DNA of 64,000 bases from the human T2T-CHM13v2.0 reference genome, Homo sapiens. The DNA lies in the NCBI RefSeq assembly GCF_009914755.1, contig NC_060943.1, one strand, 5' to 3'. Positions 22,699-57,800 of the stretch are shown here, piece after piece. The notes beneath the pieces are model-generated. The model was not told where the DNA came from and ran no database searches. It was given only the letters and a program-made list of their open reading frames with translations. A program made the position numbers and the translations under genes. The number at the start of each line of letters is the position of its first letter. The first letter of the stretch is position 1.

Positions 22699-23614
22699 AT
22701 CGTTCCCAATATAACGACAAAACATAAAGGGAGGACGCCTTGATAGGAAGAAATGACATCTTCCTAAGTGTTTTTAAATTACTTCAATGTATCTTTCTTT
22801 TTTTTTTTTTTTTTGGGAGACCGAGGCTTGCTCTGTTGCCCAGGCTGGAGTGCAGTGGTGTGATCTTGGCTCACTGCAACCTCTGCCTCGTCGGTTCAAG
22901 GGAGTCTCCTATCTCAGCCTCCTGAGTAGCTGGGATTACAGTCGCCTGCCAAGAGATGGGGTTTCGCCATGTTGACCAGGCTGGTCTTGAACACCTGGCC
23001 TCAAATGATCCACTCGCCTTGGTCTCCCAAAGTGGTAGGATGACAGGCGTGAGCCACCGCGCCCAGCCTCTTCTATTCTTTTAGAGACAGCGTCTCACTC
23101 TGTTGCCCAGGCTGGAGTGCATTGATGTGATGTGTGATCATAGCTCATTGCAGCCCTGACCATCCGAGCTCAAGCAATCCTTCTGCCTCAGCCTCCTGAG
23201 TAGCTGGGGCCGCAGACGTGCACCACTGCACCTGGCTAATTTTTAACATTTTTTGTGGAGCCAGAGTCTGTATAAAATAAAGTGTAAATAGTACCATAAA
23301 TAAAGAATACATAGTACCATTTTATAGTAGTATAAAACGGACATTAGAAACTCTGGACTTAAAGTTTGAAAAAATACACAAAAGTAGTTCTCAAGTTCTA
23401 GATACTTGGAGAATCCAGGAATCAACAATGTCGTGGAACTCCTACAGCCTTTCATAAAGAATGGCCCTCGAGGAAAGTGGAATTGTCAGTGGGCATTGTG
23501 TTCGTGCCTCAGCTAAACACGGCAGGAATTTATTTATAACCTAGTGTAACATCCTCGAGGCACTGTTCAATTAGTCAAGCAATTGTAAAATTCTCCCAGT
23601 CTTAGAAAAGATAC

Positions 23615-24089
23615 AGGTGTGTGTCCCTCTGCTGTGGCTGTGCACTGACGCTTCAGTAAAAGTTGCCGTCTAAAACCACCGGCCTGCCCTTGAATTGTTT
23701 TGTTTTGTTTTGTTTTGTTTTGTTTTTTTGATTCGCAGCCTCACTCTATCACCCAGGCTGGAGTGCAGTGACACGATCTCTGTTCACTGCAACCTCCGCC
23801 TCCCGGGTTCAAGCGATTCCCCTGCCTCAGCCTCCTGAACAGCTGGGATTACAGGCACCCGTCCCCATGCCCGGGTAATTTTTGTATATTTAGTAGAGAT
23901 GGGGTTTCACCATGTTGGCCAGGCTGGTCTCGAACTCCTTACCTCAAGTGATCCATCCGCCTCAGCCTCCCAAAGTGCTGGGATTACAGGCGTGAGCCAG
24001 TGCGCCCGGCTTCTTGAATTAGTTTCTAGGAGAAGCCAAGAACCCCCCCGGGCTAAGCCTCAATTTTGGGGCTCGCCTGTGCTGCATCA
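23615..24089 (+). mobile_element. 3' part of an ERV1 LTR (LTR9-like) split by an antisense Alu, one per unit
   Basis: 'taaaagttgccgtctaaaaccaccggcctgcccttgaatt[Alu]ttgaatt...aagccaagaaccccccgggctaagcctcaattttggggctcgcctgtgctgcatca'. TSD ttgaatt. Confidence 0.7.
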
Positions 24090-54753: not shown

Positions 54754-54876
54754 CCCGGAGCCATTGTGGCTCAGGCCGGTTGCGCCTGCCCTCGGGCCCT
54801 CACGGAGGCGGGGTTTCCAGGGCACGAGTTCGAGGCCAGCCTGGTCCACATGGGTCGGAAAAAAGGACTTTTTTTT
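54754..54876 (+). ncRNA. SNAR-A: snaR-A type RNA gene, copy 7 (G>T variant at 54814)
   Basis: Body identical to copy 4. Confidence 0.95.
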
Positions 54877-57800
54877 ATCGTTCCCAATATAACGACAAAA
54901 CATAAAGGGAGGACGCCTTGATAGGAAGAAATGACATCTTCCTAAGTGTTTTTAAATTACTTCCATGTGTCTTTTTTTTTTTTTTTTTTTGGGAGACCGA
55001 GCCTTGCTCTGTTGCCCAGGCTGGAGTGCAGTGGTGTGATCTTCGCTCACTGCAACCTCCGCCTCGTCGGTTCAAGGGAGTCTCCTATCTAAGCCTCCTG
55101 AGTAGCTGGGATTACAGTCGCCTGCCAAGAGATGGGGTTTCGCCATGTTGACCAGGCTGGTCTTGAACACCTGGCCTCAAATGATCCACTCGCCTTGGTC
55201 TCCCAAAGTGGTAGGATGACAGGCGTGAGCCACCGCGCCCAGCCTCTTCTATTCTTTTAGAGACAGGGTCTCACTGTGTTGCCCAGGCTGGAGTGCATTG
55301 ATGTGATGTGTGATCATAGCTCATTGCAGCCCTGACCATCCGAGCTCAAGCAATCCTTCTGCCTCAGCCTCCTGAGTAGCTGGGGCCGCAGATGTGCACC
55401 ACTGCACCTGGCTAATTTTTAACATTTTTGTGGAGCCAGAGTCTGTATAAAATAAAGTGTAAATAGTACCATAAATAAAGAATACATAGTACCATTTTAT
55501 AGTAGTATAAAACGGACATTAGAAACTCTGAACTTAAAGGTTAAAAAAATACACAAAAGTAGTTCTCAAGTTCTAGAGACTTGGAGAATCCAGGAACCAA
55601 CAATGTCGTGGAACTCCTACAGCCTTTCATAAAGAATGGCCCTCGAGGAAAGTGGAATTGTCAGTGGGCATTGTGTTCGTGCCTCAGCTAAACACGGCAG
55701 GAATTTATTTATAACCTAGTGTAACATCCTCGAGGCACTGTTCAATTAGTCAAGCAATTGTAAAATTCTCCCAGTCTTAGAAAAGATACAGGTGTGTGTC
55801 CCTCTGCTGTGGCTGTGCACTGAGGCTTCGGTAAAGGTTGCCGTCTAAAACCACCGGCCTGCCCTTGAATTCTTTTTTTTTTTTTTTTTCTTTTTCAGAC
55901 GGAGTCGCACTCTATCACCCAGGCTGGAGTGCAGTGACACGATCTCTGTTCACTGCAACCTCCGCCTCCCGGGTTCAAGCGATTCCCCTGCCTCAGCCTC
56001 CTGAACAGCTGGGATTACAGGCACCCGTCCCCATGCCCGGGTAATTTTTGTATATTTAGTAGAGATGGGGTTTTCAGCATGTTGGCCAGGCTGGTCTCGA
56101 ACTCCTTACCTCAAGTGATCCATCCGCCTCAGCCTCCCAAAGTGCTGGGATTACAGGCGTGAGCCAGTGCGCCCGGCTTCTTGAATTAGTTTCTAGGAGA
56201 AGCCAAGAACCCCCCCGGGCTAAGCCTCAATTTTGGGGCTCGCCTGTGCTGCATCAGCTTCACACCTAGAGAAGAGAGTGAAAGAGAAGGGAGAGCCGTC
56301 CTTTTGGGCTGCCTTGAAATAAAGGTTGACCCATGGGTTCATGTATTGTCATTCATTCTCATTTTCTCTTCCTCTCTTTCTCTCTCTCCCCTGCCCCTTA
56401 AGTTAGCTTTTCTACACCCTACCTGGATAAGGATAAGAAATAGAAGGAGGGGATACTTTAGGATGCTACAAAATAAAATAAAACAACAACAACAATAAAA
56501 GCAGCAGCAACAACAACAACAGCAACAAAAGGGGAAGAAACAAATCTGGCCACTGCACATTCCTCCTTGGCAACAAAAAGCCGTGGATGCAAAAAGCTGC
56601 CCTTCACTGCATAGACAGAACAGGGCGCGCTCGAGGTATGAATCTCGGAAATTACTCAAGCCATCAGCCTCTGCAAGAAGCAAAGTGGACGGCCGGGCGC
56701 GGCGGCTCACTCCTGGAATCCCAGCACTTTGGGAGCCCGAGGTGGGCGGATCACGAGGTCAGGAGATCGAGACTGTTCTGGCTAAACCAGTGAAACCCCC
56801 TCTCTACTAAAAAAATAACAAAAGCGAAGTGCATCTCCCATAAACGAGGTACTGCAGGAAGAAAGCAGAAAATGAGACCCGAGTACACACATGCACGCGG
56901 GCGTGCGCACACACACACCAGAAGAAATGAACCAAGAGGAAAGGAAATATTTTCAAGTAAGCATTTGGAGATGGGAAAAACACCTTGAAACAGAAATTCA
57001 TAAAGTACACACATGTTTTTTTTTTTAAGTTAAAAGAGGAACAATAATAAACAGGCAGAAAATGAATAAAAAATAAAATGTCATATCAGAAGTGAAGATA
57101 AATTAAAAGTGGTCAAAGGAGAAGAGATCTAAATGCAAACTTAAGAAGGGGCAATTTTTTTTTTTTTTTTTTGAGACGCAGCCTCACTCTGTCGCCCGGG
57201 CTGGAGTGCAGTGGCGTGATCTTGGCTCACTGAAACCTCTGCCTCCTGGATTCAAGCGATTCTCCTGCCTCAGCCTCCCAAGTGGCTGGGATTACAGGCA
57301 TGAGCCACCATGCCCGGCCTAGAGTCATCATGGAAATTAAACAACCTGCTTCCAAATGACTTTTGGGTAAAGACTGAAATTAAGGCAGAAATAAAAAAAT
57401 TATTTGAAACTAATGAAAACAAACATACAACATCCCAGAATCTCTGGGACACAGCTACAACAGTGCTCAGAGGAAGTTTCTAGTGCTATATGGCTACATT
57501 AAGAAGCTAGAAAGATCTCAAATGAACCGCCTAACATCACACCTAGAGGAATTAGAAAAACAAGAGCAAATCAACCCCAAAGCTAGCAGAAGAAAAAAAA
57601 AAAACGAAATCAGAGCTGAGCTGAATGAAATTGAGATGTAAAATACCATACAAAAGATCAATGAAACCCAAAGTTGATTTTTTAAAAAAATTATTTATTT
57701 ATTATTTATTCCATAAATTATTGGGGTACAGGTGGTATGTGGTTACATAAGCTCTTTAGTGGTGATTTGTGATTTTGGTGCACCCATCACCTGAGCAGTA

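What the first reader, a model, noticed from the sequence alone, without database searches (positions are those of the whole stretch)
22827..55002. Three-unit higher-order duplication of ~16.09 kb (C-A-A' block present twice)
Gene order is A,C,A,A',C,A,A',C'. Copies three units apart share private variants (2=5, 3=6, 4=7; offsets 16090, 16086, 16085), while neighbours differ at many sites. The block ~22,827-38,917 is nearly identical to ~38,918-55,002. This indicates a recent multi-unit duplication layered on the older 5.36-kb period and predicts copy-number polymorphism in 16-kb steps.
Basis: seen in the sequence. Interest (0 to 1): 0.72.

Follow-up and report, generated by a model that had tools for sequence, protein, structure and literature searches.

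The report
Recent three-gene duplication in snaR array
A 16-kb block of three small-RNA (snaR) genes sits twice, almost letter for letter, in a known and already copy-number-variable tandem array on human chromosome 19, likely from one misaligned recombination event, and similar multi-gene duplications occur elsewhere in the same arrays, so this is ordinary tandem-array turnover.

Summary
Confirmed. Window 22,827-38,958 and 38,918-55,043 differ by 4 substitutions and 5 small indels, whereas adjacent 5.36-kb units differ at 36-91 masked sites. Both ends of the near-identity fall at one unit phase, which pins the join to 41 bp (38,918-38,958) in an Alu-type repeat just downstream of a snaR-A gene: the signature of a tandem duplication by out-of-register exchange. 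The array is the known snaR A/C cluster (Mer33 megasatellite). In this assembly it holds 40 snaR genes against 10 in hg18, and published NanoString data give 32-95 diploid copies over both clusters. The block is not special: a 2-unit duplication with 1 substitution lies further along, and a 16.82-kb four-gene repeat lies in the sister cluster. So variation likely moves in multiples of the unit, not in 16-kb steps only. hg18's gene order and subtypes lack the doubled block, suggesting polymorphism. No reads were available; private variants and 39 distinct units make a false duplication unlikely. Ten paper searches found no description of this block. Low interest, useful as annotation.

The parts
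18340..64000 (+). Left part of the snaR A/C tandem array (5.36-kb units); the array runs on to about chr19:50,952,000 with 40 snaR genes, 13 A-type and 27 C-type
22827..38958 (+). Copy 1 of the three-unit block (C-type flank, snaR-C, snaR-A, snaR-A', through the join interval)
38918..55043 (+). Copy 2 of the block; carries the rarer allele at all 4 distinguishing substitutions (41530, 46807, 51672, 52706) and 2 private small deletions
38918..38958 (.). Join interval, 41 bp, identical in units 1, 4 and 7; in a reverse-oriented Alu-type repeat about 130-170 bp past the snaR-A' terminator; this allele combination occurs once on chr19
22577..22698 (+). snaR-A gene, unit 1 (RefSeq SNAR-A12); left of the block
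27951..28069 (+). snaR-C gene, unit 2; not in the hub's RefSeq table; B-box-like motif and T-run intact
33318..33439 (+). snaR-A gene, unit 3 (SNAR-A1)
38670..38791 (+). snaR-A' gene, unit 4 (one change at +60; labelled SNAR-A3); unit 4 is a hybrid, like unit 7 to +250 and like unit 1 from +292
44041..44159 (+). snaR-C gene, unit 5, same sequence as unit 2; not in the RefSeq table
49404..49525 (+). snaR-A gene, unit 6 (SNAR-A2)
54755..54876 (+). snaR-A' gene, unit 7, same sequence as unit 4; not in the RefSeq table
60120..60238 (+). snaR-C' gene, unit 8 (SNAR-C4); right of the block

Best explanation
A 16.09-kb block of three snaR-bearing units is present twice in tandem at 99.97% identity, and it likely arose in one unequal exchange between two copies of the array paired three units out of register, with the inferred crossover in the 41-bp interval 38,918-38,958. 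Shown: the two copies, their same-phase ends, and the hybrid unit 4 (unit-7-like to +250, unit-1-like from +292). Inferred: the earlier order was A,C,A,A',C'; the exchange added one snaR-C and two snaR-A genes; three of the four distinguishing substitutions are shared with other units and so likely came by gene conversion or were already on the partner chromosome. The divergence gives only an upper age, about 70-290 thousand years (recalled rate 1.25e-8 per generation, wide Poisson limits), and the event could be far younger if the partners were homologues. The block would now be the preferred mispairing substrate locally, so gains or losses of 16 kb are likely there, beside the 5.4- and 10.7-kb steps seen elsewhere in the array.
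For: Both ends at one phase within 41 bp and block length equal to the offset; independent tract ends would share such an interval about 41/5,360 of the time (reasoning). The join allele combination occurs once on chr19. Tree pairs 2/5 and 3/6 have support 100/99 and 100/100. The 2-unit duplication has the same anatomy, ends within about 165 bp of one phase and 1 substitution in 10.9 kb. A 16,819-bp repeat in the sister cluster is 99.905% identical over 23,184 bp. Longest exact match among units 1-7 is 3,942 bp at 3 units against 877 bp at 1 or 2. hg18 has 10 genes in order A,C,A,A,C,A,C,A,C,C with other subtypes at places 2, 4, 5 and 7. Copy number varies 32-95 in 165 HapMap people.
Against: No reads or other haplotype sequences were seen, so the event and its polymorphism rest on one assembly plus hg18 tables; hg18 may be collapsed (Brahmachary 2014 says so of such arrays). 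All 6 differences that can be polarised have the rarer state in copy 2 (two-sided p about 0.03), which this model does not predict. The join allele pair also occurs at one chr2 and one chr3 site, so it equals a probably ancestral state and is not by itself proof of recombination. Unit 1 has its own A-to-C lineage switch 40-150 bp before the join, which blurs the left end (last differences 22,571-22,826). Crossover, sister exchange and break-induced replication cannot be told apart from sequence.
Confidence: 0.82

Rival explanations
1. An older three-unit periodic arrangement was homogenised by long gene conversion, with no recent gain of units.
For: Three of 4 distinguishing substitutions are shared with other units, and most units are mosaics of two lineages, so conversion is active. 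hg18 starts with the same class order A,C,A,A,C,A.
Against: The near-identical tract is exactly one period long with both ends at one phase. Outside it the 3-unit offset shows no special similarity (17-24 substitutions per kb in several flanking bins). hg18 subtypes differ.
Confidence: 0.07
2. False duplication in the assembly: one triplet traversed twice.
For: No reads seen. This assembly has 62 sites of the published probe region per haploid genome, 124 diploid-equivalent, above the published maximum of 95. Rarer alleles all sit in copy 2.
Against: The copies differ at 4 substitutions, one unique in the genome, and at 2 private deletions. Both copies keep 10 pair-exclusive alleles, some within about 60-400 bp of distinguishing sites, which polishing with other units' reads would have erased. 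All 39 full units are distinct. The NanoString absolute scale was calibrated on read depth and may run low.
Confidence: 0.05
3. The C-A-A' triplet is a functional module kept or amplified by selection on snaR-A to snaR-C dosage.
For: All three genes keep the B-box-like motif and T-run. snaR-A is a Pol III transcript tied to cancer and testis (abstracts).
Against: Only 2 copies among 40 genes; other duplications have other contents; promoters are intragenic (Parrott 2007 abstract passage), so the order should not matter; the block adds 2 of at least 31 snaR-A genes.
Confidence: 0.03

Closest known systems
snaR A/C cluster, A/B/C/D duplicon, 19q13.32-33 (Parrott and Mathews 2007 PMC2094060; Parrott 2011 PMC3045588, PMC3337139)
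   Same: Same locus, same ~5.3-kb unit with one snaR-A or -C gene, proposed to spread by tandem duplication.
   Different: Those papers describe 10 genes and 'uniform' repeats; here 40 genes, mosaic units of two lineages and multi-unit duplications.
Mer33 5.4-kb megasatellite (Warburton 2008 PMC2588610) and SNAR-A1 multicopy locus (Brahmachary 2014 PMC4063668)
   Same: Same array by hg18 coordinates and unit size; copy number scored as variable, 32-95.
   Different: Neither resolves internal order or this block in the passages and table rows read.
Higher-order repeats of large tandem units: 6-monomer LTR-array HORs (Warburton 2008, passages) and NBPF 3mer Olduvai triplets (PMC10475015, listing and abstract start only)
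   Same: A group of diverged units repeated as a near-identical block, attributed to unequal crossing over.
   Different: Those have many copies of the higher-order unit; this one has two and does not dominate the array.

Membership tests
snaR A/C tandem array (A/B/C/D duplicon) | One snaR-A or snaR-C gene per unit | tested here: met
   Rfam RF02556, 8 of 8 units in the window above gathering score; 40 genes over the array
snaR A/C tandem array (A/B/C/D duplicon) | Head-to-tail period of 5.3-5.4 kb | tested here: met
   39 spacings of 5,350-5,394 bp
snaR A/C tandem array (A/B/C/D duplicon) | Unit built of Core, DHX34 fragment and R19 | not tested
   From Parrott 2011; no comparison with DHX34 was run
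Tandem duplication by unequal homologous exchange | Direct adjacent copies, length a whole multiple of the unit, both ends at one phase | tested here: met
Tandem duplication by unequal homologous exchange | Hybrid unit at the join with no inserted or lost bases | tested here: met
   Unit 4 switches lineage between +250 and +292; the 41 bp are identical in units 1, 4, 7
Tandem duplication by unequal homologous exchange | Unduplicated or reciprocal allele in the population | tested here: inconclusive
Tandem duplication by unequal homologous exchange | Support by spanning reads | not testable with these tools
   no reads held
Higher-order repeat array (alpha-satellite or NBPF type) | Units n and n+k far more alike than neighbours | tested here: met
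   1 masked difference per pair against 36-91
Higher-order repeat array (alpha-satellite or NBPF type) | Higher-order unit repeated many times and ruling the array | tested here: not met
   2 copies, 6 of 40 genes; mean divergence by offset shows no dip at 3 (43.0, 44.0, 48.6 for offsets 1-3)

The most novel reading that the evidence does not exclude
The two snaR arrays turn over by multi-gene blocks so fast that human haplotypes differ several-fold in snaR-A number and in the snaR-A to snaR-C ratio, unseen by SNP tags and by 10-unit references, and this block-level dosage sets snaR-A output in testis and tumours; the 41-bp join gives a one-copy marker to follow one such event.
Probability: 0.12. 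Interest if true: 0.55.

Novelty: new member of a known kind. Interest (0 to 1): 0.25.

Why it matters
Mechanistically it is a textbook event in a known variable array. Its use is practical: the complete assembly has 40 snaR genes here, 3 of the 8 in this window are missing from the RefSeq table, and snaR-A studies mapped to older references see 10 units. Resolved blocks and a mapped join let one test whether array structure, not only total copy number, affects snaR-A expression.

Tried and rejected
Older 3-unit periodicity across the array: rejected, no dip at offset 3. Alu-driven breakpoint preference: both mapped joins lie in Alu-type segments, but such segments cover 34% of a unit, so 2 of 2 is unremarkable. 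PRDM9 13-mer (motif recalled): one per unit near +4,030, about 3.7 kb from the join, in 4 of 4 units checked; no link. Sister-cluster source for copy-2 alleles: 0 of 6 found in the 40 kb examined of about 140 kb. RNA folding of A, A', C, C': the +60 change lowers stability from -57.9 to -53.0 kcal/mol; no bearing on the duplication. HPRC2 preprint and Hoyt 2021 preprint: term searches of the main text gave no snaR or Mer33 passage; their supplements were not seen and may list the array. Tandem Repeats Finder sees only short repeats. The first unit alignment misplaced the partial left unit and was redone. Earlier scan findings were not available.

Full report
Observation. The window from 18,340 onward is a tandem array of 5.36-kb units. 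Identity peaks at three units (99.39%) against 97.5-97.7% at one and two. Base-by-base comparison at the 16.09-kb offset leaves 4 substitutions (25439/41530, 30720/46807, 35587/51672, 36621/52706) and 5 small indels between 22,827-38,958 and 38,918-55,043. Masked unit distances are 1 for each of the pairs 1/4, 2/5, 3/6 and 36-91 for neighbours among units 1-7; 1 of 20,000 shuffles of unit order gave as close a repeated mixed triplet (a test chosen after the fact). Ten alleles are exclusive to those pairs among 39 full units.

Anatomy of the join. The last difference on the left (22,826, +250 of unit 1) and the first on the right (38,959, about +290 of unit 4) fall at one phase. The 41 bases between are identical in units 1, 4 and 7. 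Painting units against two real reference units shows two lineages about 2% apart, with many mosaic units; unit 4 is like unit 7 through +250 and like unit 1 from +292. A 54-base marker across the join matches once on chr19 and once each on chr2 and chr3; by position those two are probably the snaR-H and -I duplicons of Parrott's table (inference), so the allele pair likely equals the ancestral state. The join lies in a segment that matches the Rfam SRP-like element at 15,365-15,512 and many other flank repeats, an Alu by its motif (recalled). Such segments cover 34% of a unit, so this says little.

Context. Following the array out of the window gives 40 snaR genes, 13 A-type and 27 C-type, ending near chr19:50,952,000; all 39 full units are distinct. 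The three-unit block is one of several young duplications. A two-unit block (chr19:50,809,539-50,820,435, offset 10,729) has 1 substitution and the same same-phase ends. Single-unit runs (units 11-13, 20-21, 23-26) differ by 2-4 sites. In 40 kb of the roughly 140-kb sister cluster, a four-gene block repeats at 16,819 bp with 12 mismatches in 23,184 bp. Mean divergence by offset has no dip at three.

Mechanism. Same-phase ends, a length equal to the offset and a clean hybrid unit are what an exchange between arrays paired three units out of register leaves; a conversion tract would not be expected to match the period. I put this at 0.82 and cannot separate meiotic crossover from sister exchange or break-induced replication. 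Of the four substitutions one is unique in the genome and three are shared with 1-2 other units, pointing to conversion or to prior variation on the partner chromosome. Counting 1 or 4 changes over 16,132 bp gives 72 or 288 thousand years (limits 2-736; rate and generation time recalled), an upper bound. The longest exact match among units 1-7 is 3,942 bp at three units and 877 bp at one or two, so further 16-kb steps are likely favoured locally. Unexplained: all six polarisable differences have the rarer state in copy 2, and unit 1 has its own lineage switch just before the join.

Other haplotypes. Parrott 2007 Table 1 (passage read) lists ten hg18 genes in the order A,C,A,A,C,A,C,A,C,C. Its second and fifth genes are 87.5% with a T8 end, whereas units 2 and 5 here compute to 88.5% with T7 (assumes their 104-base span); its one-mismatch A genes are first and eighth, not fourth and seventh; its fourth unit is about 330 bp shorter. 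So hg18 does not hold this doubled block, though it may be collapsed. Brahmachary 2014 Table S3 (row read) gives 32-95 diploid copies, mean 59, for a probe covering both clusters in 165 HapMap people, poorly tagged by SNPs (best R2 0.05 overall). This assembly has 62 such sites per haploid genome, above that range when doubled: a long allele or a low calibration; it leaves a small opening for assembly error.

What is in print. The array is the snaR A/C cluster (Parrott 2011 PMC3045588: abstract, section 14, part 2 of Results and supplement passages; PMC3337139: parts 1-2 of 3; PMC2094060: passages and section 18) and the Mer33 megasatellite (Warburton 2008, passages). PMC9151912 passages concern expression and map to GRCh38. 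Ten searches showed no paper on this block or on the 40-gene structure; the library lacks most subscription papers, and preprint supplements (Hoyt 2021, HPRC2) and Parrott's .doc dataset were not seen.

Verdict. Real and accurately described; a new instance of ordinary multi-unit duplication in a known variable macrosatellite. It works like a first step toward a higher-order repeat but fails the many-copies test. Interest 0.25.

Noticed in passing
chr19:50,734,340-50,952,000 (window 18,340 onward, L001-L018): The array has 40 snaR genes (13 A, 27 C) against 10 in hg18; units are mosaics of two lineages about 2% apart.
   Followed up: yes
L003:9539 to L005:435 and the copy 10,729 bp further: Two-unit (A''-C) tandem duplication with 1 substitution in 10.9 kb, as young as or younger than the reported block.
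   Followed up: yes
L019-L022 (chr19:53,092,001-53,132,000): Sister cluster has a 16.82-kb four-gene block (two long, two short units) repeated at 99.9% identity.
   Followed up: partly
window 27,951, 44,041 and 54,755: Three intact-looking snaR genes are absent from the RefSeq table; the SNAR-A3 label at 38,670 sits on a 122-base gene though the transcript listed is 121 bases.
   Followed up: partly
window 41530, 42263, 46199, 46807, 51672, 52706: All six polarisable differences between the two blocks have the rarer state in the second copy.
   Followed up: partly
whole genome, both clusters: 62 sites of the published probe region per haploid genome, above the published diploid range of 32-95 when doubled.
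   Followed up: partly
window 23,961-24,561: A RefSeq enhancer is annotated in copy 1 only, although copy 2 (about 40,052-40,652) is identical there.
   Followed up: no
G000:C19:49,656,497-49,656,520 (-): A lone snaR-B/C-type match outside both clusters, probably snaR-E by position.
   Followed up: no
L010-L011 (units 28 and 29): Units 28 and 29 share 16 exclusive alleles, an older third lineage patch at the A-run to C-run border.
   Followed up: no
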